Positions 4,076-55,831 of a stretch of 64,000 nucleotides of DNA are shown here, one piece after another. Both the position numbers and the translations under genes were made by a program. This DNA is from a phage. Within the stretch, counting starts at the first letter, position 1. The number at the start of each line of letters is the position of its first letter. The notes beneath the pieces are model-generated. The model worked only from the letters and a program-made list of their open reading frames with translations. It was not told the DNA's origin and ran no database searches. Location: sequence record PX246731.1. One strand, given 5' to 3'.

Positions 4076-4082
4076 TCACAAC

Positions 4083-6916: not shown

Positions 6917-6929
6917 AAAGGTACTTCTT

Positions 6930-8933: not shown

Positions 8934-8939
8934 ACCTAA

Positions 8940-8964
8940 GACCTCCTCCGGGAGGTCTTTTTTT
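8940..8964 (+). terminator. Rho-independent terminator
   Basis: Stem acctcc(8941-8946)/ggaggt(8951-8956) with 4-nt loop, followed by a 7-T run. Confidence 0.7.
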
Positions 8965-8993
8965 GGTTTCAATTAACTCTTTTAGGAGGGTTT

Positions 8994-9697: not shown

Positions 9698-9724
9698 GCA
9701 ACATTTAATCTGGAGAGTAAATAA

Positions 9725-12292: not shown

Positions 12293-12296
12293 TCTG

Positions 12297-26605: not shown

Positions 26606-27185
26606 TATCGTGAAGGGTTCTGTTAGAATCCTTTGAGATAGGAACTCCTATCATAACCTTTCTTAACTTAATCTTTGCCGTATGGCACTGACGCTAGGGT
26701 TGATGCCCATCCGTCAGTTAGACTATTTTAAGAATGGGTTATCACAGAAAATGTAAAGCAACATTCGGGTTAATCAATGGCCTCTCCCTATATGGGCCAT
26801 TTCTGAATCTTAGGCTATATCCCAAAGGTTAGTATCTTTGGGATAAGGCTTCAGATCCCTTATCAAACTAACGCTCATGTTGAGCACAACATTAACCCTT
26901 AATGTCGGATAGTTCATTAGGCTATTCCTCCAACATCGAGATGTTAGGTCTTACATGTAAGCTAAAACATAGGGTAAAGAGGGACTTGTCATCCCTCCCC
27001 TATTATGACATCCTATCAATGAGTACATTAAGCTAACGTGCGGAGGTTTACACTGTAGCCGGTGTAGATAGAGAAGACGGCAGGATAGCTACCTGTGCTT
27101 AGTGTACTCTTTGATAGGTTGTGCTATCAAAGTCCAGACGATATCTGAGTGACTTTAAAAACAGATGGAGCCAGGTGGAATCCCT

Positions 27186-28440: not shown

Positions 28441-28469
28441 AGCCCCTCTAATGAAGGGCTTTTTCATTT
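28441..28469. terminator. Bidirectional terminator hairpin between convergent genes
   Basis: Stem agcccct(28441-47)/agggct(28455-60) flanked by A-runs upstream and T-runs downstream; sits at the 3' ends of the plus-strand gene 27979..28359 and the minus-strand vRNAP gene. Confidence 0.6.
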
Positions 28470-31400
28470 AGTTAGTGAGGTTGAGCCATGGGTTCAGGGT
28501 ATGGGCACGTAAACCTTGTCCGAAACCGAAGGAGTAACCGAGATTACCCTGTGCAGCAATGCTAAAGATGTTGTCCTGAATAGGTAAACCAACGTTACCA
28601 AACATGGTAGGAGTTGGTGCTAACATAGCCATAGCAGCATGTACCGGGTTATTACGAATCATGGACACTGCAACTTTTGCAGAACGAATCTTAAAGTTGT
28701 AGAACCACATTAAACCAACACTTTCCATATATCCACGGAAGCGTCCTGGTAAACGGTCATAGTTAATGAACTCTTCCGTTACACGTCCTAGTGCTTCTTC
28801 ACGAGTCTTACCCTTACGCTGAGTCAGTTCATCATAAATGATTGCTTTAGCGATAAAGTCAGAGTACTCAACTGTCTTCTGAATACCCTGGAACAGAGCA
28901 GTATCCTTAGTGATAAGTGCATAACGACCAGCGTTACGTACAGACTTAGGCAGCTTATCAGCCAGCTTATCCATGTATTCGTGAAGTTTACCTTCAGTAA
29001 TCAGAATGTCATCACGCCCGATACCAGCATCTGCAATTGAAGAGAACTCTCCAGCTTCCAACAGAGGCCAGATACTCAAACGTTTATGGCTATCAGAGAT
29101 GGACTGAATCTCAGCCTTAAGTTTACGAATCTGGTTCGGGTTAGTAGCTGCACGTAATTCTGCTTCTGCATCTACCTGACGCAGACGAGATTTCAAGTAC
29201 TGGTTAATCTCAGCAGTTTTCTGTGGAATGCTCTTAGCAATATTCTTAACAGGTACACCACGAGCAACCATCTGGTAAAGGTTAGCCAGGAAGTTAACAG
29301 CAGGTACGACTACTGACTTAACTACAATCAGAGTCTTAGCTTCTTTAACTAAGTTCTGAACCAGGTTCTCACCACCCATTACGTACTTATAGGCACGGTT
29401 ACCAAATACACCCAGCATAGCTTTCTTGAAGGTATCCAGTGTTTCTGGGGACCAACGAGAATTACCAGACCAGGCATCACCAACAGAAGCTGCACGATAA
29501 CCAAGAGCATCATTCAGCATGTCACGACGTACCCACAATTCACCAGGACCAAACAGACTTTCTGCTTTCTGACGTGTTTCGCTGTTCATCAGTTTAAGAG
29601 CATCAGCAGTTACTGGGTCCAGTTTAGAACCAAGAAGGTTAACGTACTGGGACTTATTAGAGGCAGACATCTTAATGTCGTTCTCATACATGCTATGCAG
29701 GTTCTCAATCAGCATATCGTTGAAACGCTGAGCCTTAGCCTCTTCTACCTGACGTCCACGCCATACACCGATTGCACGAGCAAGATGGTTCTCACCTTCA
29801 ATATGCTTCAGCATGTTAGGGTCAATAGATTGCTCGTAAGCAACCACATTGCCATTGGCATCATATACAGGCAGCAGGGGTTCATTACCACGTTCACCAC
29901 GAGCCAGTGCTTTAGTGATACGGTCTACGGAAGGCTTGTCAGTAATACGACCAGCTACCATGGTTCCCATCGTAAAGCCTGTACCTAGGTCTACACCACC
30001 AGCAGTATTACGAACGTTCTGCAGGATACCCTGTGAGAATGGAGCCTGTGCCTGTACTGGTGCAAAGTAGTAGCTACGAGCAGAACCACGATTAGCAGAG
30101 CTACCCTGATACGTACCCAGTCGTACATAGGATTTCTCAATCAAATCAGCAAACTGACTATCTTCAGCAACAATCAGGTTAACGCCCTGTTTAGTTTCAC
30201 CAGGAATATACCCTTTGTACTGGTTCAGGGTTGCACGGCTATCAGACTTGGCTTTAGCCATTTCATCTTTACGCTGACCAACCAGGTAAGAAGTAGCAAA
30301 GTCCATGCCTTCAATTTCTGTCTGAGCCAGCGAAGATAACATCTCACGGTCAATCTTATTCATTGCTTCCAGTGCATATAGGGTAATGAGTTTATCCAGC
30401 TGAGCTACATCAACAACAGAACGTGTAGTCTTACGTTCACCAAGCAAGCGAGAAATTGCAGTAGCATTACGCAGTAGGTTATTACCAACTGTACCATTAA
30501 TCATGTACTGAGCCAGTTGCTTAGATTTACGATTAATCAGAGGCCAGTTACGCCCTGCTTGTTTCTGCAAATCTGCTTCCAGTTTATTAACCTCACGGTC
30601 AACAATCTTCTGGTCAGTCAGCAGGTCACGGATTTCATCCAGAGACATAGTGTCACGTAGAACAGCTAAGTCAGTTTTACCCATACCGGTATGCATTGCT
30701 TTCCACTCATCGTTGGTCAGCTTACGGCTGAACTTAGCTGCGATAGTGGTAGGCAAGTGTTCACGGAACTGTTGACGGTCAGCCTGTACCTGTGCACGTA
30801 CTGCTTTAATCAAATCATACACAGAAGCATTGCTCTTAGTACGTCCGATTATGTCATTAACCAGGTCATGGAAAGGTTGCCATACTTTACCCTGATTCAT
30901 TGCAGCCATAACACCCTCAGCTACGATTGAACCATTCTTCTCTGTAGCAATAGCAGCTACCAGTTGTGCAGCATGAGCAGCACCTTTAACCAGTGGGTTC
31001 TTGGTATTAGCTGCAACTTCACGAGCACCTTCCAGAGCACGGGTAGACAGTACATCAATAGAGTCCACCAGATACTGGTTAGCACGGTCAATAGCATTAC
31101 CAGTAGGAGTAGCAACGGAATCATAGAAGGACTCTGCATTAAGACTGGTCTGCATGATTGTCTGAGCCAGTGCATCCATACCTTCCTGTACGTTAGTGGC
31201 TTTAGTATCACCTGCTACACGAGCATTCAGACTAGCCATTGCAGCAGTACCGATGTTAGTCAGCATTGCATCAACAGTATTGCCTGACTTCTTATCCGCT
31301 TTCATAACAGGAATATCAGCCAGTACCTTACGTACCTCTTCACTTACCATTGCCAGACCTACAAAGGTAGGCAGCAAGGAAGAACGACCCTGTGCATCAA

Positions 31401-34400
31401 ACTCAATATTGTTAGCACCCATGATGGTATCGAACTTCTGCTGTGCATAGTAACGGTCAGCAGGGTTAGTACTATCCGGGTCAGCCATGAACGCTTCAAC
31501 AGTCAAGTTCTTAGTAACGTGTGTGTAGTATTCCTGTGCACGAGCCATAGCAGCAGGATTAATAGCAGCCTCGGTAGCCAGTGCAGCAACAATGTTAGTA
31601 AAGAGACGCTGTTCCTGCATATTCATGGTGAAGCCATGAGCCTGAACATCACGGGTTACTTTAGTTGCATTCACTACTGCATCAGAGAACTTACCTTTAC
31701 GAATTACTTGCTGTACTGGTTCTGAACCAATGTAGTTAGTAATTAGCTTATCGAAGGTTTTCCCTAACTCTTCCAGACGAGTATTGTCACCATATGCTTT
31801 GTTATGGAACAGGGTAGTGTCCTTAGCTACAGCAGCAGTAGGAGCTTGCCCACGCATTACTACAGCAGAGTTAAACAGTAAGCCAGAGAACATATCATCT
31901 GCATTAGCTGGAGCTTTCTTACGACCAAATACCAGACGTTTGATTGCTTCGTATACAGCCTGAACCATAGTTTTAAGTGCAGTGGTTTTCTTCTGCTTAC
32001 TAATCAGTTCTCGGTTGGTTAAACCCCAAGCCATGTACTCGTTCAGTGCAGCAGCTTTAGCCATTGCTGGTTCAATGAAGCCATTAGACAAGTGACCATT
32101 AATGGTATTAAGTGCATCAGCATATGCTTCACGTACTGCCGGAGATTCATCATTAACATCCAGAGCACGGAACTGGTTCATCAGGTCTTCAATATTCTGG
32201 ACAGCTTCATTAGGAGTACCTTCGTAGTGAGCCAGTACAGATTCAAAAGTAGAAGCATGTACCAATTCATGAACCAGAGTCTCTAATGAAGGAGTAACTA
32301 AGTAGATGGTCTTATCTTCAAAGTTAGTCCAGCCATATGCATTACCTGCTTCAGCAGCCTCAATATCTTCTGGTGCTGGGCGAGTAATATTCTTCTCAAT
32401 AGCATAGGCATCCAGTTGAGAAGGTGTACCATAAACAACCTTATAGTCTTTAGCAGCAAGGGATTTCTGTATTTCTTTCAATACTTCTTGCTGTTCAGGA
32501 GACATCTCTTTAGCCAATTTAGTAATAGCAGTATTAGACAGCAGACGTACACCAGATTTCAGTACACGACCAACTTGTTCCATTGCTGGTACTTCTTTCA
32601 CTGGTTCTGCTTTAGCAGCACGTACTGCATCACGACGCTTGTTTAATTCAGCATCAAACAGTTCGTTCAGCTTAGCTACTTGCTGGTCTACAGTAAGCCC
32701 TTCCAGAGAGATTTTACCGTTGTTCACATAAGGAGCACCAACAGCAGCCATCTGGTCAACAGTGACTTGTACCTGGTCCATTACCTTGTGACGAATATCT
32801 ACACCCAGGGCAATGTTACGCAGATTACGCTCAATCAATGCAATACCAGAATCCTTAATCATAGAAATTTTATAATCTCTATCACCATCTACTCTGGCAA
32901 TATGAGTACGTTGCTCAAAGTCTAAAGCAGACTTTGCAATAGCATCTATTGCTGAATCGGACAGCTTATTTAAATCAACATTCTTAACAAACTTAGAGAA
33001 AGACTCATAAACATTCTTGATAGGGTTACCCTGCCAGGAAGTGTATACAGCCTCATTAGCTTTACGGCTTGCATCAGTAATGTCATTGATACCAATGTTC
33101 ATACCATCAAAGATTTTAAGGGTATTCTTCGGAGCACCCTTCATAGTAGAAAGAGTCTGCATCATCATGCCATCACCAGTACCAATGGTCATAAATGGAA
33201 TACCTGCAACACCTGCTTGTGAAGGAGCATAGATGCTCATTGGCACACGCATACGGTCATCTAAGTTGGTAGCCAATACTTGGTTAGCAACATCAGTATT
33301 CTCGCTGCCAGCAATGTAGAAAGTCTGGGAACCAGTCTCAATCATTGGAGCCAGTGGTGCTAAACTATTCTGAATTTCATTCAGTTCTTTCTGTGTTAAG
33401 AAATCACCCTTCTTCCATGTTGGGTCTTTTTCTTTTTCTGCCAGTTTAGCCTGTACTGCCTGTTGGAACATATCCTGCAATACCAGAGATTGAATCTGAG
33501 TAGCCTTCTGCAAGTTCTCCGTAGATTGCATTAACCCATCGCCAACAGTGAATCGGATACCTTGTCTCATTGGCTCAACAAAGAAGTGCAGCATATTCTC
33601 TTGTAAGTTCTTAAGAGCATCTCCGGATACGGTAAACTCCTGGGGGTCTAACTTACCAGTCAGAACACCATCTACTTCTTTAATGAATAACTTACCTTTA
33701 CGCTTAGCTGGAATATTACCAGTCAATGCTTTCATAGAAGTAAGGAAGGTATCCAGCATAGCCTGAGCATCAGCCTCAGAAGCAGCCTCCTTACCAAACA
33801 TCGCCATAGCTGGGGAAATGTTAGGGTCAACAGCACGGGCTTTCAGAACGTCGCTTAGACGCTCATAGATGGTATCAGTAATTGCACTTACCATCTTGCC
33901 TGCAATACCACGAGCACCAGAACCATAAATGGTAATAGTCAGTGGGTTTTTAGCGATACCACGCTTCAGGTCCAGAGTACCATCTTCATTAAGATTGAAG
34001 TCTTTGATGAACAGGTCCATTAACTTCTGGAGATGGTCCATCTGGTTTATAACAGGAATATTTTTACTATAAGCATTGCGTAATTCATTTAGATAGAATT
34101 GCAGACTATTAGTAGATGCTTCATACAGGTCAACACTGTCTTCCTGAGTATGATGCTCATTCATGGTCTTACCGGCTTTACCGAAGAACAAACCACCTTT
34201 GGCAGTATTCTTAATCCAGTTTGGAGTGAACTTACCACCGGTCATTAATACCATTGCGTTGATTGGACCGTTGGTTACACCATCGGCTTCAACGTACAGT
34301 GGGGTATTAAAGTTGGCACGGTCATCACTGTTAAGGTAACGGGCATATTCCATAAGAGCCATAAGAGCTACAAAGGATTTATCATTACCCAAAGAGGTCG

Positions 34401-37400
34401 TCAGAATATTCACTGCATCGGTAGGTAAGTATCCAGACTTATCAAACTCAACCATCATATCTACAGCAGGTTTCAGCTTACCTTCCAGAGCTTTGGTAAG
34501 TTCCTCTGACATAGTTTCACGAGTCATTTTATGAACTTTGATACCCAATGCCTGAGCCAGTCCAAGCTGGAAGCCTGAGAAGTCTTCATTGTTCTGGTTC
34601 GATAAATCCAGAGTAGCTTTGGTAGGTAAGATAGCCTCACGAACTAGCTTAGCTGATTGAGGGTTATATTTACCTAACATCTGCATACGACCAACACGGG
34701 TCATATTGTAAGCATAGTGAATAGGTACAGAAGAAATGTCTTCACTCTGTGCTCTTACCTGTTCAATAACAGAGAACAATTGGTTGTAAGAATCCTCTAC
34801 TGAACGGTTTTTACCTTCCAGAGATTTAGCATGGTTCTTATTAAGTAAATCCTTATCCAGAGTACCAGCACCCATCAATTCGAGAATACGGTCTTTACCT
34901 AAAGCCTCATAGAACTGAACCATTGGGGTATGCACAAAGAACTCTGTAGCCTGCTCTGCTTTAAGGGCAGCTTTCTGTTCCGGAGTATTACGGACAGCAG
35001 GGTTACGTAACTGAGTATGAGCCACGGGAGGAATGTCATCACCGAAATACAGTTTCTCTACTGGTTCTACGAGGACAGCTTCCTCGATAGCAGTAGGGAA
35101 TTTGTTAATAGCGTCGGTATCATCCAGCTTCTCAATGGTATACAGACCAATAGTCTTATTGGATTCTGGGTCAATTTCAGACACATCCAGCATGGACTCT
35201 TTAACTTCACCCATTTCAATAAGGGAAGACAGAATCTCTGTAGCCATTGCCATCGGGATACCTTTGGTATAACCAAGTGGTGCATCAGCATTACGATTAA
35301 GTCCCCAGTAAGATTCAATCTTTTGAGCCAGTGAGTTAGTAGCTTCTACTAAGGTTTGTGCATTCTCAAATTCTGCGAGGATACCTTCTGGTAACAAGGA
35401 AGCATTTACACCAGTAATTGCAGCCACATCCTGCATGTCTTTAATAGCAGCATTCTGTGTAGCAGTAAGTCGCCATTGCAGACCAGCAAGTACAGCAGTC
35501 TCTAACAACTGGTCATTGAACTTAAAGGTGTCTCCGTCTTTCTCTACGATATTAAGTAACTTACCACCTACCCAACGGTTAGCTTCAGTACCTTCTGCAA
35601 AACGTTTACCAACGTTCTTGTTAGCAAGGAATTTAGCCAGACGGTCAGACAAAGTAGTCTTCAGAGTTTCACCAAACTCAAATAAGTCCTGGTAACGCTT
35701 AATCACATCACTTGTGAGAGCGTTATTTTCTTTTTGAGTAAATGCTTCAAAACGAGCAGCAGAAGACAGTGCTTTCTTAACATCAGTTAAAGGAGATTCA
35801 GAACCAATGGTACGGGACTTAGGTTCTTCTGGCAGACTAAATGCTTTAAGGAACTGGTTCGGTGTCTTTTCATTGTTATAGACAGGGAACACTGCTTCCA
35901 TTCCCGATAGAGGTTTACCACCAACAGTATAGTCTGCTTTCAGTTGAGCCAGTGATACTTCTTCTTTCTCAACATTATTGGTATTAAGCCCAGATGTATC
36001 TACACCAATCTGAATCAGTGCATTGTTTGCTTCTACGAATGATTGAACAGTATTGAATTGTTCAGCAGTTAGCTTCTGATTATCAAACAATTGCAGAGAT
36101 ACGAACGGTTGCTCACTACCTTTATAGAAAGTAGAACGTACAGCACCAGTATCCAGAGACATGTCACGATAACCATCATGACCAAATACGTCAGACAGAC
36201 TGATATGGTCGCCATTGGAACCAACAACAGTACCATCAGCGAATAGCCATGGACTATCTCTACGGTCACCATACTTATTAAGAGTATCTTGTGAAATAGT
36301 ATTCTCTTTCACATAAGAATCTCTTTCAGATTCAGTAGGCTGTTCAACGATATCCTGTTTTTCAGACTGGTTCTCAGGTTCTTTTACGGTTTGTGGTTTA
36401 GACTCTTTAATAGTAGGTTCTGTTTTAACAGCTTCACTAACAGAGGGTTTAGTCTGTACAGTAGGGGTAACTGGTTCCTGTTTTATAACAGGAGCTTCAT
36501 CAACCTGATTCACTGGTTCATTGGTCTGTTGGGATTGAGCAGCATCAAGATTGCCCTGACGGAACTCTTTAACTACCTGGGCAGCAGGTTTGTCCAGACG
36601 TGAATCCAATGGGGTAACTTTCACATGAGAAACATTAAGCTCCGGGTAAGCCGTAGCAAGTGCGTTAGCAATATCAGCTACGGTCTTGGCTTCCAGTCCT
36701 ACTTGCTGGGCAAACTTAACAGACTTGGTATCATACGGATTGACACCGAGGCCAGTACGACTACGTACCCATTCACGCGAGGGAGTAAGAGCCTGATAAT
36801 GGACAGACTTATTCTTATCCGCATTCCCAGAAATCAAATGCTCATTCAATGCTCCGACCTTATTCTGCATGTGCTGGGCGAACTTCATAAAGTCGTCGAG
36901 ATAAGCGGAAGCCAAATCGAAGTTACCAGAGTTGTACGCAGAACGAATGCGTTTAGCATGTTGCAACGCAGAGTACTGGCCTTCATTAGAACGAGATTCG
37001 TCGGTTTTAATCTGTTTACTAACAATGTCTTGAGGACGTAAGCCTAGTTCTTCTGCTTTAGCGTCAAATTCTCGTGCTCCTTGCAATAAAGCAGCAGCAG
37101 ATTGCAGGGCAGCACGCTGACGATTACCCAGTGTAATCTTACCTTCACTTGCATGTTTCAGAACCATGTTCACTGAATCCGCATCCAGCACTTCTGGAGA
37201 CATATCAGCAGCCATAGCAATGTTGTTTGCCTGAGCTTGGTTAGCTTTTTCAGTAGCTTTCAGTTTACCTGCTTCAGCCTGTTCCTGAATCATAGAATGG
37301 ATGGCACGGAATGCACGGAGTACCTTCGGTGTATTCTGAACATTAGCCATCAGGCCAGAGAATTGGTCAACAATATTAGCAGCAGGAGAACCCTGTTCCA

Positions 37401-39273
37401 GATTAGCCAGAGCACCCGGGTCACGGTTAATGAAGCTATCCATAGACATGATGTTGTCATACATCTGGATTGCAGCTTCCATTTGAACGTTAGGGTCTTC
37501 GGCAGTATTAACCAAGTCAGCCATCTTCTGAATAGCTTCAACACGGTTAGTGGAACCAGAAACAGCTTCACGGATTGCCGGGCTAGCCTGTTCCAGTTCT
37601 ACTGGGTCAAACTTCATTACCTGAGTTAAGTCAGCAGCATACTGTGTAGCAGCAGCTTTCTCTTCAGGAGAAATGTCCATTGCATCTACTGCTTCCTGAA
37701 CAGTTGCCTGTGCCTGTTCTGCCTGAGCAGTAGCTTCTTGTGCAGCAGCGTTAACCGTAGCATCAGATACAGGGGATGCTTGCTCATTACGCTTAGCAAC
37801 TTCTTCACCACGCTGAACCAGGATGTTAGTAATAGGTGAAGCTACTTTCGCTAATGCTTTACCAGCCAGAGAAGCACCAGCCAGGGTAGTACGTACAGCA
37901 GGACCTACGGCAGCACCAGCAGCCTTAACAGTTGCACCAGGAGCTTGAGCAACTCCAGCACTACCGAAGCCATACAGTGCACCAAGCCCGGTTTGTTCAC
38001 CCACACCTTTAAGCAAATCACGATTAGCATCTACATTACCTTGAATTGCTTTGTTCTGTGCAAACTGACTTGTACCAGACTGGATACCTTCTTCTACAGT
38101 CTCACGCAGCATGTTAGAACCAGCTCCAGCCAGTGAACCTACCTTAAGTGGGTTAAGTTCAAACTTGGATACCAGTGGAGCAGTAAGAGCAGCAACTGGA
38201 GCAGTTAAGCCAGCAGCAGTGATACCTGTTTCAGATGCAGTCTGACGACGTGCTTCTTCAGGAGACAGACCATCTTTAATATGCTGTTGGTATACAGGAG
38301 ATTTAGCAGCCAGTTCACTGAACGGCATTTCCATAATTTCATTAGCAGTCTGCTGGTATGCACCACCAGCTTCCATACCACCAATTGCTATAGCAGGTGC
38401 AGCAACACGACCAGTAGCTAATGCAGTACGTGCAGGACGCGAACCTAATTCAGCAGCTAGGGTAATACCCTTAACAGCTTTATCACCACCTACCATTACT
38501 TTACCAAGTGCAGATACACCACGGATAAGTGGACCACCAGTAAACAATGAACCAACACCCTCAGCCAGACCATCTGTAGCAGCCATGCCATTAGATAAGG
38601 TGTTAGCAACAGAATCATAAGCATCACGACCAATTCGAGATAGGGAAGCAACGAGTTCACTTTCTCCTTTATCAATATCTTGCTTATAGAGTTTCTCATT
38701 CTCCTGAGCAGATATTACGTTCTGGTTCTGTACTACATTACGGCGAGCATTCAGTGCATCAGACTGTAGGTTGTGTACACCTTTATTTAACCAGTCAAGA
38801 CCGGAAGCAGTGGATGCCCCGGCATTATCATTGACCAAACCTGTGCCAAGAGCAGCAATGCCCCCAAGGGTATTAGCAACACCAAGACCAACACCAGAAA
38901 GGGTATCACCAAGTGCTTCACCATATGTACGACTCTTAGTTAAATCACGACGAACAGCATTAGCTGCATTGACACGAGCATTGAGAATGTCCATTCCTTG
39001 CTCATTGCCATACTTGTTTATGATTTCAAGAGGAGAGGCATTAGTAAAATCTGCCTGAATAGAACCTGGGTTAAATGCACCAGCACCTAAGTTACCAGCA
39101 CGGCCTGCCTGTAATTGGTAGGCGTTCTGTGGGGTTAATTGGAAAGGGTTTTGCCCTTGTTCAGCTTGTTTCCGAGAGGTTGCAGTAGAGACATCGACTT
39201 GCTTAGCAGTAGTGATGCTGTCTGCGAAACCTGCCAGACGGTCAAATGTTGACATAGCATGATTCCTGTTCAA
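28468..39273 (-). CDS. virion-encapsidated RNA polymerase (N4 vRNAP-like giant protein)
   Basis: Single uninterrupted 3601-aa ORF. A roughly 3500-aa virion RNA polymerase is the hallmark of N4-like phages, and the position at the start of the minus-strand late block matches N4 gp50. Confidence 0.8.
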   Translation of the reverse strand: MNRNHAMSTFDRLAGFADSITTAKQVDVSTATSRKQAEQGQNPFQLTPQNAYQLQAGRAGNLGAGAFNPGSIQADFTNASPLEIINKYGNEQGMDILNARVNAANAVRRDLTKSRTYGEALGDTLSGVGLGVANTLGGIAALGTGLVNDNAGASTASGLDWLNKGVHNLQSDALNARRNVVQNQNVISAQENEKLYKQDIDKGESELVASLSRIGRDAYDSVANTLSNGMAATDGLAEGVGSLFTGGPLIRGVSALGKVMVGGDKAVKGITLAAELGSRPARTALATGRVAAPAIAIGGMEAGGAYQQTANEIMEMPFSELAAKSPVYQQHIKDGLSPEEARRQTASETGITAAGLTAPVAALTAPLVSKFELNPLKVGSLAGAGSNMLRETVEEGIQSGTSQFAQNKAIQGNVDANRDLLKGVGEQTGLGALYGFGSAGVAQAPGATVKAAGAAVGPAVRTTLAGASLAGKALAKVASPITNILVQRGEEVAKRNEQASPVSDATVNAAAQEATAQAEQAQATVQEAVDAMDISPEEKAAATQYAADLTQVMKFDPVELEQASPAIREAVSGSTNRVEAIQKMADLVNTAEDPNVQMEAAIQMYDNIMSMDSFINRDPGALANLEQGSPAANIVDQFSGLMANVQNTPKVLRAFRAIHSMIQEQAEAGKLKATEKANQAQANNIAMAADMSPEVLDADSVNMVLKHASEGKITLGNRQRAALQSAAALLQGAREFDAKAEELGLRPQDIVSKQIKTDESRSNEGQYSALQHAKRIRSAYNSGNFDLASAYLDDFMKFAQHMQNKVGALNEHLISGNADKNKSVHYQALTPSREWVRSRTGLGVNPYDTKSVKFAQQVGLEAKTVADIANALATAYPELNVSHVKVTPLDSRLDKPAAQVVKEFRQGNLDAAQSQQTNEPVNQVDEAPVIKQEPVTPTVQTKPSVSEAVKTEPTIKESKPQTVKEPENQSEKQDIVEQPTESERDSYVKENTISQDTLNKYGDRRDSPWLFADGTVVGSNGDHISLSDVFGHDGYRDMSLDTGAVRSTFYKGSEQPFVSLQLFDNQKLTAEQFNTVQSFVEANNALIQIGVDTSGLNTNNVEKEEVSLAQLKADYTVGGKPLSGMEAVFPVYNNEKTPNQFLKAFSLPEEPKSRTIGSESPLTDVKKALSSAARFEAFTQKENNALTSDVIKRYQDLFEFGETLKTTLSDRLAKFLANKNVGKRFAEGTEANRWVGGKLLNIVEKDGDTFKFNDQLLETAVLAGLQWRLTATQNAAIKDMQDVAAITGVNASLLPEGILAEFENAQTLVEATNSLAQKIESYWGLNRNADAPLGYTKGIPMAMATEILSSLIEMGEVKESMLDVSEIDPESNKTIGLYTIEKLDDTDAINKFPTAIEEAVLVEPVEKLYFGDDIPPVAHTQLRNPAVRNTPEQKAALKAEQATEFFVHTPMVQFYEALGKDRILELMGAGTLDKDLLNKNHAKSLEGKNRSVEDSYNQLFSVIEQVRAQSEDISSVPIHYAYNMTRVGRMQMLGKYNPQSAKLVREAILPTKATLDLSNQNNEDFSGFQLGLAQALGIKVHKMTRETMSEELTKALEGKLKPAVDMMVEFDKSGYLPTDAVNILTTSLGNDKSFVALMALMEYARYLNSDDRANFNTPLYVEADGVTNGPINAMVLMTGGKFTPNWIKNTAKGGLFFGKAGKTMNEHHTQEDSVDLYEASTNSLQFYLNELRNAYSKNIPVINQMDHLQKLMDLFIKDFNLNEDGTLDLKRGIAKNPLTITIYGSGARGIAGKMVSAITDTIYERLSDVLKARAVDPNISPAMAMFGKEAASEADAQAMLDTFLTSMKALTGNIPAKRKGKLFIKEVDGVLTGKLDPQEFTVSGDALKNLQENMLHFFVEPMRQGIRFTVGDGLMQSTENLQKATQIQSLVLQDMFQQAVQAKLAEKEKDPTWKKGDFLTQKELNEIQNSLAPLAPMIETGSQTFYIAGSENTDVANQVLATNLDDRMRVPMSIYAPSQAGVAGIPFMTIGTGDGMMMQTLSTMKGAPKNTLKIFDGMNIGINDITDASRKANEAVYTSWQGNPIKNVYESFSKFVKNVDLNKLSDSAIDAIAKSALDFEQRTHIARVDGDRDYKISMIKDSGIALIERNLRNIALGVDIRHKVMDQVQVTVDQMAAVGAPYVNNGKISLEGLTVDQQVAKLNELFDAELNKRRDAVRAAKAEPVKEVPAMEQVGRVLKSGVRLLSNTAITKLAKEMSPEQQEVLKEIQKSLAAKDYKVVYGTPSQLDAYAIEKNITRPAPEDIEAAEAGNAYGWTNFEDKTIYLVTPSLETLVHELVHASTFESVLAHYEGTPNEAVQNIEDLMNQFRALDVNDESPAVREAYADALNTINGHLSNGFIEPAMAKAAALNEYMAWGLTNRELISKQKKTTALKTMVQAVYEAIKRLVFGRKKAPANADDMFSGLLFNSAVVMRGQAPTAAVAKDTTLFHNKAYGDNTRLEELGKTFDKLITNYIGSEPVQQVIRKGKFSDAVVNATKVTRDVQAHGFTMNMQEQRLFTNIVAALATEAAINPAAMARAQEYYTHVTKNLTVEAFMADPDSTNPADRYYAQQKFDTIMGANNIEFDAQGRSSLLPTFVGLAMVSEEVRKVLADIPVMKADKKSGNTVDAMLTNIGTAAMASLNARVAGDTKATNVQEGMDALAQTIMQTSLNAESFYDSVATPTGNAIDRANQYLVDSIDVLSTRALEGAREVAANTKNPLVKGAAHAAQLVAAIATEKNGSIVAEGVMAAMNQGKVWQPFHDLVNDIIGRTKSNASVYDLIKAVRAQVQADRQQFREHLPTTIAAKFSRKLTNDEWKAMHTGMGKTDLAVLRDTMSLDEIRDLLTDQKIVDREVNKLEADLQKQAGRNWPLINRKSKQLAQYMINGTVGNNLLRNATAISRLLGERKTTRSVVDVAQLDKLITLYALEAMNKIDREMLSSLAQTEIEGMDFATSYLVGQRKDEMAKAKSDSRATLNQYKGYIPGETKQGVNLIVAEDSQFADLIEKSYVRLGTYQGSSANRGSARSYYFAPVQAQAPFSQGILQNVRNTAGGVDLGTGFTMGTMVAGRITDKPSVDRITKALARGERGNEPLLPVYDANGNVVAYEQSIDPNMLKHIEGENHLARAIGVWRGRQVEEAKAQRFNDMLIENLHSMYENDIKMSASNKSQYVNLLGSKLDPVTADALKLMNSETRQKAESLFGPGELWVRRDMLNDALGYRAASVGDAWSGNSRWSPETLDTFKKAMLGVFGNRAYKYVMGGENLVQNLVKEAKTLIVVKSVVVPAVNFLANLYQMVARGVPVKNIAKSIPQKTAEINQYLKSRLRQVDAEAELRAATNPNQIRKLKAEIQSISDSHKRLSIWPLLEAGEFSSIADAGIGRDDILITEGKLHEYMDKLADKLPKSVRNAGRYALITKDTALFQGIQKTVEYSDFIAKAIIYDELTQRKGKTREEALGRVTEEFINYDRLPGRFRGYMESVGLMWFYNFKIRSAKVAVSMIRNNPVHAAMAMLAPTPTMFGNVGLPIQDNIFSIAAQGNLGYSFGFGQGLRAHTLNPWLNLTN

Positions 39274-39358
39274 ACTTATATCGTATAAGAAGATTCACTG
39301 TACAGTAAGTGAATGTAAGAGAAAAGCCCCGGATGGGGCTTTATTAGTATGTAAGATT

Positions 39359-41305
39359 TTATCGAGGTTGCATATAGGGAGGTAAACCCTCTGCCAATTT
39401 TCGATAACGTTTAGCTCGTTCTTCATCTTCACGACTACGCTCACGTTCTACTGAAGCATTAGAACGGAAGTTCTGTGGAACCAGGTTTCCTTGGTTAGCC
39501 ACCACAGTATTAACAGCAGCATCAAGTGCAGCACGTGCTCTTGCTAACTCAGCCTCACGAGCAGGAATAGTAGCAGCAAGTCCACTTTGCCCAGCAGCCA
39601 CACGACGACGAGTATCAGCAAGCAAGGCTTCTGCTTGTGTTACCTGGTTCTGAGCATTTTCAATATTACCCTGTACCTGAGTAAGAACATTATCACGAGC
39701 AGTAGCTTCAATACCTTCTCCACGTCGTACTGAACGTGCTAGTTCTCTGGCAACGGTATCATCAATACGAATACCATTACCACCCTCGTTAGAAATGAAT
39801 GGGTTAATAGCATCTAGTGCTCGACTAATCATACCTTCAGGTACGTTGGTAGTAGACTGCTTAAGAATCTCAGCAGCTACAGCAGGAGACTGCCCGGATT
39901 CCTGCATAACATCATTAAGTCGAGCTATCATCCATCCTTTCTCAGAACCTTTGAAAGCATCCTTAAGAAGACGGTCTGCTACTTCACCAATAGTAGAGTT
40001 GTCACGCAATGCACGGGCATAGTTAGCAGTAATAGTTCCAGTATTATCTTCAGACTGGCGAGCAGCAACTGTATTGCCTGCCATGTTTGAGACTACTTGC
40101 TGGGTCTGTAACTGTTCAAGAGGTGCACCTACTTCTGCCTGTGCAATTAACTGACGTGCTTCACTCCATGGCATATCCTTATAACCACCAACACCCAAGT
40201 CAGGCAATGCAGCCCAAGTCTTAGAAAGGTTACCACTCTTACGGTCATTGAAGATTGCTTCAGCTATTTTGTCCTGTACTTCAGGAGTCATTTGCTGATT
40301 ACGCCAATCTGAACCAAGCACCTTAGGTGCATAGTCTTCCAGAGTAGCTTTATTAATCTGAAATGCTCCTACAGGGGAATGACCTTGTGACGGGTTATTA
40401 ATCATAGTTTGTTGATGATTAGTAACCTCACCCAGTGTCATTTCAGTAATAGGCTTATCAGTAGCAGCAAAGGTATATGTTGCATCATAAGGAGAACCAG
40501 AACGAGTACCAGCAGTTCCCGGAGCAGAGCCAGAAGGAGACACAGCATAAGTACCCGGGAATCTCTGATTCACACCTCGCATGATTGCAGCACGTACACC
40601 AGGAGAAGCATTCTGCATAGCAGACTCTGCCAGTGTAAGAGCATCCATAGGTGTAGAAGCACTACGGAAAATGTCTGTCAATATACCGGATGCAGCTTGT
40701 GAATCAGCATCATTACGTTGAGCCACACCCAAATCAAAACGGTTCTGTGCTTGGTTAATAGCCTGACCACCTTGCCCTTGAAGACGACTCAGCATATCCA
40801 GTTGTTGATCAGCAGGGAGTGTAGACAGTGACTCTCGGGTTTGTCCCAATGCAGAATTAATACGGTTCTGGTCACCGGACTGATAAGCCTCAGACAGCAA
40901 TCGAATAGCTGGAGAAGCATTATCCAGTGCAGAGTTAACATCCTTTAAGCGACCAAAGTTATAAGCATTGAAGTCATTGATTCCCTGTTGACCTTGCTGA
41001 GTCAGAAGTGTACCTGCTCGCTCATCCAGATTCTGAAGGGTATGTTGGTTTACCAATGAAGGGTCAACCCCCTGAAACAGTGCACCAGATGCCAGAGCAT
41101 TACGATACTCAGTAGGGTCTTGATACTGCATAGCATTCATCATGACGGCATTGCCAGCCTCCTGCTTGGCAGCGTTCTGGAAGTTACCCAGTGCATCACT
41201 TAAGCCGGAGGTGGCGTTACCAATCATGCTTCCAAATGTGCGAATGCTGTCACCAACTCCGGAGAAGTTAGGTGCATCAACATTACGCCATGTAATTTGA
41301 GCCAT
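39359..41305 (-). CDS. virion protein (N4 gp51-like by position)
   Basis: 648-aa ORF immediately upstream (in transcription order) of the vRNAP gene; Gly/Ala/Ser/Gln-rich. Confidence 0.45.
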   Translation of the reverse strand: MAQITWRNVDAPNFSGVGDSIRTFGSMIGNATSGLSDALGNFQNAAKQEAGNAVMMNAMQYQDPTEYRNALASGALFQGVDPSLVNQHTLQNLDERAGTLLTQQGQQGINDFNAYNFGRLKDVNSALDNASPAIRLLSEAYQSGDQNRINSALGQTRESLSTLPADQQLDMLSRLQGQGGQAINQAQNRFDLGVAQRNDADSQAASGILTDIFRSASTPMDALTLAESAMQNASPGVRAAIMRGVNQRFPGTYAVSPSGSAPGTAGTRSGSPYDATYTFAATDKPITEMTLGEVTNHQQTMINNPSQGHSPVGAFQINKATLEDYAPKVLGSDWRNQQMTPEVQDKIAEAIFNDRKSGNLSKTWAALPDLGVGGYKDMPWSEARQLIAQAEVGAPLEQLQTQQVVSNMAGNTVAARQSEDNTGTITANYARALRDNSTIGEVADRLLKDAFKGSEKGWMIARLNDVMQESGQSPAVAAEILKQSTTNVPEGMISRALDAINPFISNEGGNGIRIDDTVARELARSVRRGEGIEATARDNVLTQVQGNIENAQNQVTQAEALLADTRRRVAAGQSGLAATIPAREAELARARAALDAAVNTVVANQGNLVPQNFRSNASVERERSREDEERAKRYRKLAEGLPPYMQPR

Positions 41306-41317: not shown

Positions 41318-41761
41318 TTAACGAGTTAGCTTATTAGCTGCAATGTAAGCATCAGCTGAAGACTGGTCACGGTTCTCTGCTGTAGCACGACTACGAGCAC
41401 GGTCTTCTAGTGCAGTGTTATAAGACTTAATCTGGTTATTCAGGTTAGTGTTAGTAACACTCTTAGCAAAGTTCAACTGGTCTTTGGCTAACTTATTAGC
41501 CTGGAAACCACTGTAGATATTAGCTAATGAACCAAGTGCACCAAGCCCTAACTGAAAGGTAGGTACGTTTAGGCCCAACTGATTAGCTGAACCAGACATG
41601 AAAGAAGTAGGGGAAGATGCCCCTAAACTCGTACCCATACCAATAGCTGCACCAGGGTTATAGTTCATAGCCGGGGTATTAAAGTTCTGATTGTTATTAG
41701 ACATCCAAGACATAGCAGCTGGCTGTGGGGTTTGGTTGCCTGTTAAGAATGACAAATCCAT
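41318..41761 (-). CDS. virion protein (N4 gp52-like by position)
   Basis: 147-aa ORF in the structural block; Asn/Gly/Ala-rich. Confidence 0.4.
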   Translation of the reverse strand: MDLSFLTGNQTPQPAAMSWMSNNNQNFNTPAMNYNPGAAIGMGTSLGASSPTSFMSGSANQLGLNVPTFQLGLGALGSLANIYSGFQANKLAKDQLNFAKSVTNTNLNNQIKSYNTALEDRARSRATAENRDQSSADAYIAANKLTR

Positions 41762-52829: not shown

Positions 52830-53186
52830 AATATTACCGTAGTTGTGTAGTTAGAATCCCCAATGGGGTCATATCATAAGATGCCTCTTAGATAATACTT
52901 AGTATGATGATGTACATCCAGACATAGTGTCTGCCCTAGAAATTATTGTAAGAAGTGCCGGTACAGCAAGAGAACGGAGAACACAAACAAGGCGAACCAA
53001 TGGAATCACAGTAGTAGGTTCAGACGCTAGTATTAAAGTACAGGGTACGGACATATCTAATAGAGATAATATATTAGCTGCATACACACTTGGTTCAACA
53101 GAACCTTTCATGGTAGAAGGTATTCAGTTAGGGTAATGCAAACAGTAACTCTATATAAAAAGTAATATTAATAAGTTAAAAACTAA

Positions 53187-53209
53187 CCCCGCCGAAGCGG
53201 GGTTTTTAT
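53187..53209. terminator. Terminator hairpin downstream of the tailspike gene
   Basis: Stem ccccgc(53187-92)/gcgggg(53197-53202) with cgaa loop, followed by tttttattt on the plus strand; adjacent to the tailspike stop (53210). Confidence 0.55.
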
Positions 53210-55774
53210 TTACATTGCTGATATGATGAAGCAAAGAAGCTGAGAGTATTCTATCCCCCAGCGATTGCCTGCTGGTTTTGCTGCGGAAAGAATTTTACCG
53301 GTCTTTTCATCAATGACTTCTGGAACATCGTCCCACTCCTCATAAGACAGGAAGTGATATAATTTATGATCAAGTCCGTTACGATTCAGTATCTCAGCAA
53401 CCTCTTGAGCCATTACACCGAAATGCCATTTAGCACCATCACCGTCTCTTTCAACTTCGTCATTGCGCTTGTATGCTCTGATTGATAACTTTATTTCAGC
53501 AGCCGCCTTCTTCTCTGCATCATAAAGCAATCTCTGCTGCTGTTTTTCTCTGATGTCTGATGTGTTAATCGTGCCGTTAACAGCGTAAATCTGTGCCCAC
53601 CTAAGCGAGGCCGATCCATTTGATTTGCTGTTATCCACCATCGGAGCAATTATGCCTTTGACGCTGACGTTACCTGACGCGCCAAACCACGTCATCACAG
53701 GGGAATTGTCACCGTTGAACTTGATGCTCCCATTACTCGCTGAGAAATCCAGCCCCTTCGTGACACCATCCATAGTTATCCATCTGAGGCCATCTTTTGT
53801 ATAAAAGTAATAGCCTCCTGGCGATGCTTCACTCGCACCTTCACGGAGCACGATTGCGTCATTCCCATTCGAGAACTGAACTCGGGTATTCGTCTCACGC
53901 CAGTTCTTCAGGATAAATGAACCATCAGTGAAGTCCGTCTTTATCTGTCGGTTGTCCAGAAAAGCATCACGCGGAGTGAACCCGGTGGTATCCGTAGACG
54001 CCTGAATATCTGATGCAAACAGGCGTAGGTTCCCTGTGTACCCCTGAGTTTCCGCGAGACTGTAGGCCACCATTATCCCGTTCTCGAACTCGGAAGATAC
54101 GATCTTCGTATCTCGACAATCCCCGAAAAGTGTATTCCCTTTATCAAAGGTCGTTTGCGCCTTGAACTTGTCGAAGCGAAGGTTACGCATCGGATAGCCA
54201 TCGATTTCAAGAGCAAACGCTACTGGCAAGCCCAACGAATCAGATGATTGTCCGGAAGAATGCCCAAAGCTGGTAGCAACCGTATTCTCGAACACAGTAC
54301 CGGAGAAGTTATTGCCAATGTTAGGGAAGCGAATGACGCCCAGGGACGCAGGCAATGACGGCGTAATACCAGTAAGCGTAATGTTCGTCCCATCACTCGT
54401 TGACCCGGTAAATGTATACAGGGCTGCGCTACCTGAAATCCTAAAGGAGTTGGTCGCGGTCAAACGGAGTGACGGTCTCTGTTTGAATGTAATGGTACTT
54501 GAGGTGTTACTCACCACATCTATTTGTGGGCTATTTCGAATTAGTAAACCACGAATACCCTGAGTATAGAAACGATTGAACCTGGTTCTTTCTGGGTTCC
54601 CTTTCATCGTCAGAGAGCCGTCGTTTTCAGTCAACAGCGTACCAGCAACGCGCCAGTACCCGCAGACCTGAACGTTCTCGATAACAGCCTCAGAGCTATC
54701 GTAGACGTGAAGACCGATATCCCAGTTATCACCCAGTGACGACGAACTAAAGTCGTTGTATCCATCAATGCCGTTGTTACTAAGCATGATGCGCAGGTTT
54801 TTTAGTTGCGATGTGTGAGTAGCCGTCACCGCCACACTGAACGATTTTAACGTTGCGGGAGTCGTTCCTACCGCGTCCTCATTCGTGAAAGACGTGAACT
54901 TGCAGTCAACGCCATTGACAGACTTAAGAGGCCGCTCGTTAGAGATATTTCCAAACGTTTTATCCTTCACGCCGGTCCCGGTGAACACCAGATGTGTGCC
55001 TTTGGACCAGCTTTTTAACAACCGGTCAGGGGCTGGGCGGTATGTGTCCCAGTAGTCGATACCGCTACCCTCAAGCGTTACCCCAGACGGAACAGCTATG
55101 GTCTTAGAAAGAATACAGCGGCCAGCGGGTATGCGTAATTTAGAACGACCTGAGTTAATTGCTGCGATCAGCGCATCTGAGTCATCTGTCTCACCGTCAA
55201 CTTTAACGCCCCAGCCCCGGACATCCCCTTCGTCGCGCCAGCGCGACATCTGAATGTCCGGAAACTTCTCTGCACCATCTGGGTCCGTTAACTGTGATCG
55301 CAGCACACCATCGCCAACACTAATCCACTTCCCTAAACCAATCCCACCAGCAGTTTCTGGAGTTGAGCCAGCAGTTACTGTTTTAGGGAATTCGCCATCC
55401 CAGCGATACTTACCTGTTGTATTGGTAAGCAATTCATTTTTAACATTAAGTGTAGCACCGGAATCAAACGACCCAGGCAATGTAACGTACTCTTCACGGG
55501 ATACGGCTAATTCCCCAAGGTCTACGGAACCTGCTGAATGTACAAGTACTGCCTGTTCACTAAGGCTTACGGCAGTGGTTCCTACTGGAAGTACGGGTAA
55601 TGAGTAAGCACGTTGGGTAATTTTATCGTAAATGACTTTGTATCCACCTAAGTCTACACCTACAGCAAAGTAGACTACCTCGTTCTGCTTAACACCAAAC
55701 TTACGGGCAATGGCTTGTTTGTTGGTAAGAATACCAGTGGAGCCTTTACCACCTTGTGAGAACATTCCGTTCAT
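53210..55774 (-). CDS. tailspike protein with C-terminal intramolecular chaperone (peptidase S74-like) domain
   Basis: Ser/Thr/Gly/Asn-rich repetitive central region typical of beta-helix tailspikes. C-terminal SDIREKQQQRLLYDAEKKAAAEIKLSIRAYKRNDE...WHFGVMAQEVAEIL matches the autoproteolytic chaperone domain of endosialidases and tail fibres. Confidence 0.65.
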   Translation of the reverse strand: MNGMFSQGGKGSTGILTNKQAIARKFGVKQNEVVYFAVGVDLGGYKVIYDKITQRAYSLPVLPVGTTAVSLSEQAVLVHSAGSVDLGELAVSREEYVTLPGSFDSGATLNVKNELLTNTTGKYRWDGEFPKTVTAGSTPETAGGIGLGKWISVGDGVLRSQLTDPDGAEKFPDIQMSRWRDEGDVRGWGVKVDGETDDSDALIAAINSGRSKLRIPAGRCILSKTIAVPSGVTLEGSGIDYWDTYRPAPDRLLKSWSKGTHLVFTGTGVKDKTFGNISNERPLKSVNGVDCKFTSFTNEDAVGTTPATLKSFSVAVTATHTSQLKNLRIMLSNNGIDGYNDFSSSSLGDNWDIGLHVYDSSEAVIENVQVCGYWRVAGTLLTENDGSLTMKGNPERTRFNRFYTQGIRGLLIRNSPQIDVVSNTSSTITFKQRPSLRLTATNSFRISGSAALYTFTGSTSDGTNITLTGITPSLPASLGVIRFPNIGNNFSGTVFENTVATSFGHSSGQSSDSLGLPVAFALEIDGYPMRNLRFDKFKAQTTFDKGNTLFGDCRDTKIVSSEFENGIMVAYSLAETQGYTGNLRLFASDIQASTDTTGFTPRDAFLDNRQIKTDFTDGSFILKNWRETNTRVQFSNGNDAIVLREGASEASPGGYYFYTKDGLRWITMDGVTKGLDFSASNGSIKFNGDNSPVMTWFGASGNVSVKGIIAPMVDNSKSNGSASLRWAQIYAVNGTINTSDIREKQQQRLLYDAEKKAAAEIKLSIRAYKRNDEVERDGDGAKWHFGVMAQEVAEILNRNGLDHKLYHFLSYEEWDDVPEVIDEKTGKILSAAKPAGNRWGIEYSQLLCFIISAM

Positions 55775-55831
55775 AACAACCTCTTTGTTTTTCTAGTAAA
55801 CCACCCCCTTGTGGGGGTGGGGAGTAGTTAA

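What the first reader, a model, noticed from the sequence alone, without database searches (positions are those of the whole stretch)
28468..39273. Giant 3601-aa ORF consistent with an N4-type virion RNA polymerase
A single 10.8-kb gene at the start of the late block is the defining feature of N4-like phages, where the polymerase is injected with the DNA. This anchors the family assignment. The size is about 100 aa larger than I recall for N4 itself; domain boundaries were not verified.
Basis: partly seen in the sequence, partly recalled or inferred. Interest (0 to 1): 0.4.

Follow-up and report, generated by a model that had tools for sequence, protein, structure and literature searches.

The report
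N4-type virion RNA polymerase, extra domain
The giant gene is an ordinary, already-annotated virion RNA polymerase of a G7C-like (N4-family) coliphage; it is 95 residues longer than N4's because a small, strongly conserved domain of unknown function sits in the flexible tether between its membrane-anchoring and polymerase parts.

Summary
The ORF is real: minus strand, 28468-39273, 3601 codons from TTG. The likely start is the ATG at 39255, giving 3595 aa. It is a full-length orthologue of phage N4 gp50, the virion RNA polymerase (vRNAP). It is 68% identical to N4, 98.6% to the annotated gp50 of Gamaleyavirus St11Ph5, and matches the mini-vRNAP crystal structures with E=0. All catalytic and promoter-contact residues checked are conserved, the CTD HExxH motif is present, and the gp51/gp52 ejection-protein genes lie next to it.

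One correction: it is the last gene of the leftward late block, not the first, and a terminator hairpin follows it.

The extra length has a specific cause. A 114-aa insertion (aa 991-1104) lies in "linker 1", which is disordered in N4 cryo-EM. It is predicted to fold into a compact α/β domain (pLDDT 95) and matches no Pfam, PHROG or NCBIfam family and no close PDB fold. It is under the strongest purifying selection in the protein (dN/dS 0.045). Within Gamaleyavirus it is present or absent (3450, 3595 or 3748 aa). It recurs in relaxases, DarB-like "polyvalent" proteins and a distant vRNAP. Its function is unknown.

The parts
28468..39255 (-). vRNAP (gp50 orthologue) coding sequence, 3595 aa plus stop
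39256..39273 (-). Six extra codons of the mechanical ORF (TTG start), probably not translated. AGGA ribosome-binding site at 39267-39264.
36553..39255 (-). N-terminal domain (aa 1-901, equivalent to N4 1-906). Gly/Ala-rich hydrophobic stretch at about aa 224-274, equivalent to the predicted membrane-spanning helices of N4.
   Evidence: PMC13434306
35905..36552 (-). Linker 1 (aa 902-1117, equivalent to N4 907-1007): 216 aa here against 101 aa in N4
35944..36285 (-). Inserted globular domain, core aa 991-1104 (predicted fold spans about aa 987-1110). Residues invariant across its relatives: S1001, P1002, L1004, G1008, D1016, H1017, R1040, Q1066.
32608..35904 (-). Polymerase (mini-vRNAP) domain, aa 1118-2216. 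Holds W1228 (-11G contact), TxxGR R1523, motif A D1658, motif B R1765/K1769/Y1777 and motif C D2050.
28471..32577 (-). C-terminal domain, aa 2227-3595, with the HExxH (HELVH) motif at aa 2329-2333 (nt 32257-32271)
   Evidence: PMC5512222, PMC13434306
28438..28463 (-). Terminator-like hairpin (11 pairs) plus T-run, directly after the stop codon, in the convergent intergenic gap
   Evidence: a bidirectional terminator is annotated at the same place in G7C
39323..39342 (-). GC-rich hairpin AAAGCCCC-ATCC-GGGGCTTT followed by TCTCTT, between the gp51 stop and the vRNAP start. Seen by eye; the rule-based scan did not call it.
39359..41305 (-). gp51 orthologue (periplasmic-tunnel ejection protein), 45% identical to N4 gp51
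41318..41761 (-). gp52 orthologue (outer-membrane ejection protein), 58% identical to N4 gp52

Best explanation
The gene encodes the virion-packaged, host-injected single-subunit RNA polymerase of a G7C-like (Gamaleyavirus) coliphage. It is a true orthologue of N4 gp50.

Inferred from N4 biology: a few copies are packed in the capsid and follow gp52 and gp51 out through the tail. The N-terminal domain lodges at the inner membrane. The polymerase and C-terminal domains refold in the cytoplasm, tethered by linker 1. The polymerase then transcribes the early genes from DNA-hairpin promoters, while the CTD auto-inhibits it until a promoter is bound.

Shown here: full-length collinear homology, intact catalytic and promoter-contact residues, the CTD HExxH motif, and synteny with gp51/gp52.

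The 95-aa excess over N4 comes from one discrete, independently folding domain of about 115-125 aa inserted in linker 1. It behaves as an accessory module. It is present or absent among otherwise 87-95% identical Gamaleyavirus genes. It is under very strong purifying selection where present. It also belongs to a family found in proteins that travel with invading DNA: conjugative relaxases, DarB-like polyvalent proteins and another, distant vRNAP.

My working inference is that it is delivered to the cytoplasmic face of the entry site with the first DNA and acts there as a ligand-binding or enzymatic helper or counter-defence module. That last step is inference only.
For: Identity as vRNAP:
- PDB phmmer gives E=0 to full-length N4 vRNAP and to mini-vRNAP.
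- Pfam N4_RNAP_helical, vRNAP_dom_2, vRNAP_dom and vRNAP_plug are all found, as is PHROG 2206.
- Amino-acid identity is 98.6% to the annotated St11Ph5 gp50, 89.4% to G7C gp50 and 68.3% to N4.
- Residues D559, R666, K670, Y678, D951, R424, W129, R119 and K114 (mini-vRNAP numbering) are all conserved.
- HExxH aligns with the N4 motif.
- gp51 and gp52 orthologues are adjacent.

The insertion:
- Alignment places 114+10 extra residues inside N4 linker 907-1007. That linker is unresolved in both cryo-EM studies.
- AF2 with 19 homologues gives pLDDT 95.1 and pTM 0.89.
- dN/dS against G7C is 0.045, compared with 0.10-0.17 for NTD, Pol and CTD.
- 29 phage records carry it, all Gamaleyavirus.
- PW8 (3452 aa), PhAPEC7 (3450 aa), AN24P2, PGN829.1, IME11 and others lack it, with conserved flanks. 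G7C carries a second module in the same linker (3748 aa).
- Homologues occur with TrwC+AAA_30, InPase, SLT, LPD22, LPD38, LPD39, ddrB-ParB, SNF2-type helicase and methyltransferase domains.
- It is also found in a mobC-adjacent LPD7 protein on a Vibrio plasmid.
- It is also found upstream of the Pol domain of a vRNAP only about 25% identical.
Against: Nothing argues against the vRNAP assignment.

For the insertion, the function is untested:
- It matches no Pfam, PHROG or NCBIfam family.
- Several viable Gamaleyaviruses lack it, so it is not needed for the core polymerase or ejection function.
- A folded domain of about 13 kDa in the tether has to pass the roughly 30 Å tail channel.
- Packaging and injection are inferred from N4, not shown for this phage. 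The hairpin promoters lie outside the window.
Confidence: 0.9

Rival explanations
1. The inserted domain is a passive structural bead. It only lengthens or stiffens the tether, or helps packing in the capsid, and has no ligand or catalytic activity.
For: It sits in a region that is a flexible spacer in N4. The linker tolerates 0, 1 or 2 modules among close relatives. No enzymatic fold was recognised.
Against: Eight residues are invariant, five of them polar (S, D, H, R, Q), across homologues only 22-38% identical to the window's copy (the more distant members of A1). It has the lowest dN/dS in the protein. The same domain recurs in unrelated multidomain proteins and as a stand-alone 166-aa protein. 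None of this is expected of a mere spacer.
Confidence: 0.3
2. The extra 95 aa are an artefact: a wrong start codon, low-complexity repeat expansion of the linker, or an assembly error.
For: The mechanical ORF does begin six codons too early. N4's linker is low-complexity (P/T/E/K/Q-rich).
Against: The start-codon shift accounts for only 6 aa. The extra residues form one contiguous block. The block is identical in independently sequenced St11Ph5 and 92-98.5% identical in the other carrier records. It is predicted to fold with pLDDT 95.
Confidence: 0.01
3. The insertion is an intein or other self-removing selfish element rather than part of the mature protein.
For: It is a presence/absence polymorphism inside an essential gene. 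This phage group is rich in homing endonucleases and introns (bioRxiv 10.1101/542787).
Against: No Hint, intein or endonuclease family matches. The predicted fold is mixed α/β, not the all-β Hint fold. Homologues sit at varied positions in many unrelated proteins and occur alone.
Confidence: 0.02

Closest known systems
Escherichia phage St11Ph5 gp50 (ATS92525.1) and other Gamaleyavirus vRNAPs (pSb-1, Bp4, ECBP1, EC1-UPM)
   Same: Same length (3595 aa). St11Ph5 is 98.6% identical in amino acids and 96.7% in nucleotides. Same linker-1 insertion (100% identical in St11Ph5) and same gene neighbourhood.
   Different: Only point differences within the gene. Elsewhere in the genome the window differs from St11Ph5: tailspike module and intron-like insertions.
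Escherichia phage N4 gp50 vRNAP (YP_950528; PDB 2PO4, 3C2P, 3Q0A, 9PNQ, 11GP)
   Same: Collinear NTD-linker-Pol-linker-CTD architecture with 68% identity. All catalytic and promoter-recognition residues checked are conserved, as are the CTD HExxH motif and the adjacent gp51/gp52 genes.
   Different: N4 lacks the 114-aa domain. Its linker 1 is about 101 disordered residues, against 216 here.
G7C gp50 (3748 aa), and PhAPEC7 / PW8 gp50 (3450 / 3452 aa)
   Same: Same genus, with 87-95% nucleotide identity in the flanks of the linker.
   Different: G7C carries a second, unrelated module of about 150 aa upstream in the same linker. PhAPEC7 and PW8 carry none. Linker 1 is therefore a hot spot for domain gain and loss.
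Polyvalent proteins of phages and conjugative elements (Iyer, Burroughs, Anand, de Souza & Aravind 2017, PMC5512222), e.g. P1 DarB-like proteins and relaxase fusions
   Same: The inserted domain occurs in such proteins next to SLT, SNF2-type helicase, methyltransferase, ddrB-ParB, InPase, TrwC, LPD7, LPD22, LPD38 and LPD39 domains. That paper already classes N4-like vRNAPs as polyvalent proteins with variable extra domains (ART, lysozyme, PBECR).
   Different: This particular domain matches none of the named LPD or other Pfam families. I found no description of it in the papers I searched.
T7-type single-subunit RNA polymerases
   Same: Right-hand fold with motifs TxxGR, A, B and C (established knowledge; Kazmierczak et al. 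2002, cited in PMC5512222).
   Different: vRNAP is about four times larger, is packaged and injected, and uses DNA-hairpin promoters on single-stranded template.

Membership tests
N4-type virion RNA polymerase (Schitoviridae gp50) | T7-like single-subunit RNAP catalytic motifs: TxxGR, motif A Asp, motif B R/K/Y, motif C Asp | tested here: met
   R1523 (TRVGR), D1658, R1765, K1769, Y1777 and D2050 align with N4 R424, D559, R666, K670, Y678 and D951 in identical local sequence.
N4-type virion RNA polymerase (Schitoviridae gp50) | N4-specific polymerase subdomains (plug, helical and vRNAP domains) and sequence match to mini-vRNAP | tested here: met
   PF21624, PF21894, PF21867 and PF21769 all score far above their cut-offs. 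Matches to 3q0a, 3c2p and 2po4 are about 1735 bits.
N4-type virion RNA polymerase (Schitoviridae gp50) | Giant three-part architecture (NTD, Pol, CTD) collinear with N4 gp50 over the full length | tested here: met
   Query 1-990 matches N4 1-1004 and query 1129-3594 matches N4 1025-3499. Identity is 68.3% over 3459 aligned residues. PHROG 2206 covers aa 25-3594.
N4-type virion RNA polymerase (Schitoviridae gp50) | Zincin-like HExxH motif in the first CTD subdomain | tested here: met
   HELVH at aa 2329 aligns with N4 HELVH at aa 2228. The motif is described in PMC5512222 and PMC13434306. Activity was not tested.
N4-type virion RNA polymerase (Schitoviridae gp50) | Encoded with the ejection proteins gp51 and gp52 and the late structural genes, on the same strand | tested here: met
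   The gp51 orthologue is 45% identical and the gp52 orthologue 58% identical, directly upstream on the minus strand. Synteny with St11Ph5 gp50-gp54 is shown.
N4-type virion RNA polymerase (Schitoviridae gp50) | Recognition of DNA-hairpin early promoters | tested here: inconclusive
   The contact residues W129, R119 and K114 are conserved. The early region lies outside the window, which begins at about St11Ph5 position 8968. A search with the N4 P2 hairpin, typed from my memory of the literature and not checked against a record, gave one 2-mismatch match, no more than chance.
N4-type virion RNA polymerase (Schitoviridae gp50) | Physically packaged in the virion and ejected into the host | not testable with these tools
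   Needs virion proteomics and an infection experiment. Inferred from N4 (PMC13434306).
Polyvalent-protein-associated domain (for the linker-1 insertion) | Occurs as one module among many in large proteins of phages or conjugative elements that are transferred with the DNA | tested here: met
   Found in proteins with TrwC+AAA_30, InPase, SLT, LPD22/38/39, ddrB-ParB, helicase and methyltransferase domains. Also found in a mobC-adjacent LPD7 protein on a plasmid and in a second, distant vRNAP.
Polyvalent-protein-associated domain (for the linker-1 insertion) | Match to a named LPD or other curated family | tested here: not met
   None of the 19 family members matches any Pfam model at a meaningful level; the best single-member E-value is 0.049. 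No PHROG and no NCBIfam match.
Intein | Hint-fold splicing domain | tested here: not met
   No Hint or intein Pfam match. The predicted fold is α/β with four helices packed on a sheet. Splice-junction residues were not examined.

The most novel reading that the evidence does not exclude
The linker-1 insertion is a previously undescribed family of cargo or effector domains. It rides into the cell on the cytoplasmic tether of the injected polymerase, and on relaxases and DarB-like proteins, and acts at the DNA entry site, for example against a host defence or on nucleic acid. On this reading linker 1 of Gamaleyavirus vRNAPs is a swap site where such cargo domains are gained and lost (0, 1 or 2 modules among near-identical phages).
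Probability: 0.3. Interest if true: 0.5.

Novelty: already known. Interest (0 to 1): 0.2.

Why it matters
As a family anchor the gene does its job. It places the window firmly in Schitoviridae, genus Gamaleyavirus, and nothing about the polymerase itself is new.

The one point of wider interest is the linker-1 module. The 2026 N4 structures describe linker 1 as a disordered tether of about 100 residues that holds the polymerase at the membrane. Here the same tether carries a tightly conserved, horizontally shared globular domain that close relatives do without. If that domain has an activity, vRNAPs are delivery vehicles for exchangeable early-acting domains. That extends the 'polyvalent protein' idea to a defined swap site, and natural plus/minus variants are available for direct tests.

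Tried and rejected
- The word-indexed protein search found nothing with the insertion alone. With the 19-sequence profile it found only the stand-alone P0010. That database appears not to return the giant proteins, so the census of domain architectures rests on the single phmmer run.
BFVD returned only the pSb-1 vRNAP fragment itself.
- Single-sequence AF2 was poor (pLDDT 57) and was superseded by the alignment-based model.
- Pfam, PHROGs and NCBIfam gave nothing for the insertion.
- The second G7C module gave no Pfam hit and only a marginal PHROG hit (E 0.0046). I did not interpret it.
- The search for an N4 P2-type hairpin promoter in the window was at chance level. The early region is not in the window.
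- The rule-based terminator scan found nothing between gp51 and the vRNAP start, although a GC hairpin is visible there by eye.
- I considered and rejected three readings of the extra length: a start-codon or repeat artefact, an intein, and a degenerate non-catalytic polymerase. See the rival explanations.
Full report
**Observation**

The ORF exists as described. The ORF listing reports 28468..39273 on the minus strand, 3601 aa, starting at TTG, and the translation is uninterrupted. The first in-frame ATG is at 39255. It gives MSTFDRLAGF..., which is the N-terminus of N4 gp50 (MSVFDRLAGF). AGGA lies 8 nt upstream, and this is the start annotated for the nearly identical St11Ph5 gene. The gene is therefore best taken as 28468-39255, 3595 aa.

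All large ORFs from 61888 down to 28468 are on the minus strand, and those from 1 to about 28359 are on the plus strand. The gene is at the left map edge of the late block but is the last gene transcribed. An 11-pair hairpin with a T-run at 28463-28438 follows the stop codon. G7C has a bidirectional terminator annotated at the same place.

**What it is**

- phmmer against PDB sequences gives E=0 to full-length N4 vRNAP (11gp, 9pnq; 5129 bits) and to the mini-vRNAP crystal structures (3q0a, 3c2p, 2po4; about 1735 bits over query aa 1116-2214).
- Pfam finds the four N4-vRNAP-specific domains at aa 1426-2170. PHROG 2206 'virion RNA polymerase' covers aa 25-3594.
- Megablast shows 96.7% nucleotide identity over the whole gene to Escherichia phage St11Ph5, genus Gamaleyavirus, where it is annotated 'virion RNA polymerase, gp50'. 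Identity to some 25 other G7C-like phages is 88-95%.
- Protein identities are 98.6% (St11Ph5), 89.4% (G7C) and 68.3% (N4).
- Residues corresponding to mini-vRNAP R424 (TxxGR), D559 (motif A), R666/K670/Y678 (motif B), D951 (motif C) and the promoter-hairpin contacts K114, R119 and W129 are all conserved in identical local contexts.
- The HExxH motif of the first CTD subdomain is conserved (HELVH at aa 2329, equivalent to N4 2228). It was noted by Iyer et al. 2017 (PMC5512222) and in the 2026 N4 structure paper (PMC13434306).
- The two upstream genes are orthologues of the N4 ejection proteins gp51 (45% identity) and gp52 (58%).

**How it works (inferred from N4)**

About four copies are packaged. 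After gp52 and gp51 form the trans-envelope conduit, gp50 follows. The NTD associates with the inner membrane. Pol and CTD refold in the cytoplasm, held by linker 1. The CTD auto-inhibits Pol until a hairpin promoter is bound (PMC13434306, PMC13492108).

The sequence here shows the parts. Packaging, ejection and promoter use were not and cannot be tested with these tools. The early region that holds the promoters is not in the window, because window position 1 corresponds to about St11Ph5 position 8968.

**Why it is 95 aa longer than N4**

The alignment shows one contiguous block of 114 residues (aa 991-1104), plus 10 more at aa 1107-1116, with no counterpart in N4. It falls inside the segment equivalent to N4 residues 907-1007. 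That segment is 'linker 1', a roughly 100-residue tether unresolved in both cryo-EM studies.

The block is not low-complexity.
- A phmmer scan of 1.84 billion cluster representatives found 20 relatives.
- With 18 of them as an alignment (A1), AlphaFold2 predicts a compact α/β domain with mean pLDDT 95.1 and pTM 0.89. The single-sequence prediction reached only pLDDT 57.
- Eight residues are invariant across relatives down to 22-38% identity to the window's copy: S1001, P1002, L1004, G1008, D1016, H1017, R1040 and Q1066. D997, W1003, D1007 and G1037 are nearly invariant.
- No Pfam model matches any of the 19 members, nor does any PHROG or NCBIfam model.

**Distribution of the insertion**

In the phage collection the domain is found in 29 records, all G7C-like, at 92.5-100% identity, and nowhere else. 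It is not fixed in the genus. PW8 (gp50 of 3452 aa), PhAPEC7 (3450 aa), AN24P2, PGN829.1, IME11, phi G17, SP5M and others match the flanks at 87-95% nucleotide identity but are about 400 nt shorter at this spot. In the protein alignment a short linker (QDVTLTNEDNTQEIAETKTE) replaces aa ~973-1117. G7C carries this module plus a second, unrelated one of about 150 aa further upstream in the same linker, giving 3748 aa. Linker 1 is thus a site where 0, 1 or 2 folded modules occur among close relatives.

Where present, the module is the most constrained part of the protein. Against G7C its dN/dS is 0.045 (dS 0.86). The other regions give 0.154 (Pol), 0.104 (CTD), 0.173 (NTD) and 0.21 (the rest of the linker).

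**Relatives elsewhere**

The closest non-Gamaleyavirus copies (63-64% identity) sit in giant non-polymerase proteins.
- One has SLT, ResIII/Helicase_C, methyltransferase and LPD39 domains (3675 aa).
- Another has methyltransferase, ddrB-ParB and LPD39 (3253 aa).

More distant copies accompany LPD38, LPD22, SLT, the polyvalent-protein inorganic pyrophosphatase, and a TrwC relaxase with AAA_30. One lies in a 1417-aa LPD7 protein directly downstream of mobC on a Vibrio cholerae plasmid, near a type IV coupling protein.

One hit, P0015 (3597 aa), is itself a vRNAP only about 25% identical in Pol and CTD. It has the domain at the equivalent pre-Pol position. A stand-alone 166-aa version lies next to a ParB gene on a phage-like metagenomic contig.

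These are the 'polyvalent proteins' of Iyer et al. 2017, which are transferred with invading DNA. That paper already lists N4-like vRNAPs among them, with variable added domains (ART, lysozyme, PBECR). I found no mention of this particular domain or of the linker-1 polymorphism in the papers I could search. That is absence of evidence in a limited library.

**Interpretation of the module**

Shown:
- it is a real, foldable and strongly constrained domain;
- it is dispensable for the core function, since natural variants lack it;
- it is shared horizontally among DNA-co-transferred proteins.

Inferred: it lies C-terminal to the membrane-associated NTD, so it would end up on the cytoplasmic side of the entry site at the very start of infection. 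The invariant polar residues suggest a binding or catalytic site. I think an early-acting accessory function is somewhat more likely than a passive spacer, but this is a guess at roughly 0.35-0.4 against 0.3.

An intein is very unlikely. No Hint-family match was found, the predicted fold is α/β, and the domain occurs in varied contexts and on its own. An artefact is excluded by its presence in 29 phage records, representing about 20 differently named phages.

**Verdict**

The finding is confirmed and ordinary. It is a known gene of a known phage genus, already annotated in a 98.6% identical relative. The only added value is the explanation of the extra length: an uncurated, mobile, strongly conserved domain inserted in the tether. 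This is a modest lead, not a discovery.

Noticed in passing
window 1590-2471 and 2806-3670: Two insertions of about 870 bp split the homologue of St11Ph5 gp24 into three pieces (about 1275-1589, 2472-2805 and 3671-4075). Each carries an HNH homing-endonuclease ORF: 1706-2275 has NUMOD4+HNH_3+AP2 and 2916-3491 has NUMOD4+HNH_3. Each also has a sub-threshold Rfam group I intron match: 3447-3620 at 32.6 bits, E 7.6e-6, and 2098-2408 at 18.9 bits, E 0.096, against a gathering score of 50. These are probably group I introns, as reported for other genes of G7C-like phages (bioRxiv 10.1101/542787).
   Followed up: partly
window 52990-57832: This segment has no match to St11Ph5 although the flanks are 92-97% identical, so the tailspike module has been swapped. 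ORF 53210-55774 (minus strand, 854 aa) has Tail_spike_N, a pectate-lyase-like region and a Peptidase_S74 chaperone domain. ORF 55832-58909 (minus strand, 1025 aa) has no Pfam match.
   Followed up: partly
window 5262-6170: About 910 nt replace about 430 nt of St11Ph5 in the dCTP deaminase (gp26) region. ORF 5790-6242 matches only the C-terminal half of the DCD profile, so the gene may be split or interrupted.
   Followed up: no
window 27007-27129 and the whole window: ARAGORN finds no tRNA anywhere in the window. St11Ph5 annotates a tRNA-Ala(cgc) at 34352-34423. The collinear blastn match to St11Ph5 stops at its position 34348 (window 27006) and resumes only at 34813 (window 27130), so the tRNA region has no counterpart in the window.
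   Followed up: no
window 39342-39323 (minus strand): A GC-rich hairpin, AAAGCCCC-ATCC-GGGGCTTT followed by TCTCTT, lies between the gp51 stop and the vRNAP start. The rule-based scan did not call it a terminator. It might attenuate read-through into the 10.8-kb gene.
   Followed up: no
L002 (G7C) 3019-14265, protein aa about 965-1115: G7C gp50 carries a second module of about 150 aa in linker 1 that is absent from the window, St11Ph5 and N4. It has no Pfam match and only a marginal PHROG hit (HTH DNA-binding protein, E 0.0046).
   Followed up: partly
L004 7294-7794 (metagenome contig ERZ23491061 scaffold_4375): A stand-alone 166-aa copy of the insertion domain sits between a DNA_pol_B_exo2 gene and a ParB gene. 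It lies upstream of a Prok_Ub / Prok-E2 / JAB / ThiF ubiquitin-like cassette on a phage-like contig.
   Followed up: no
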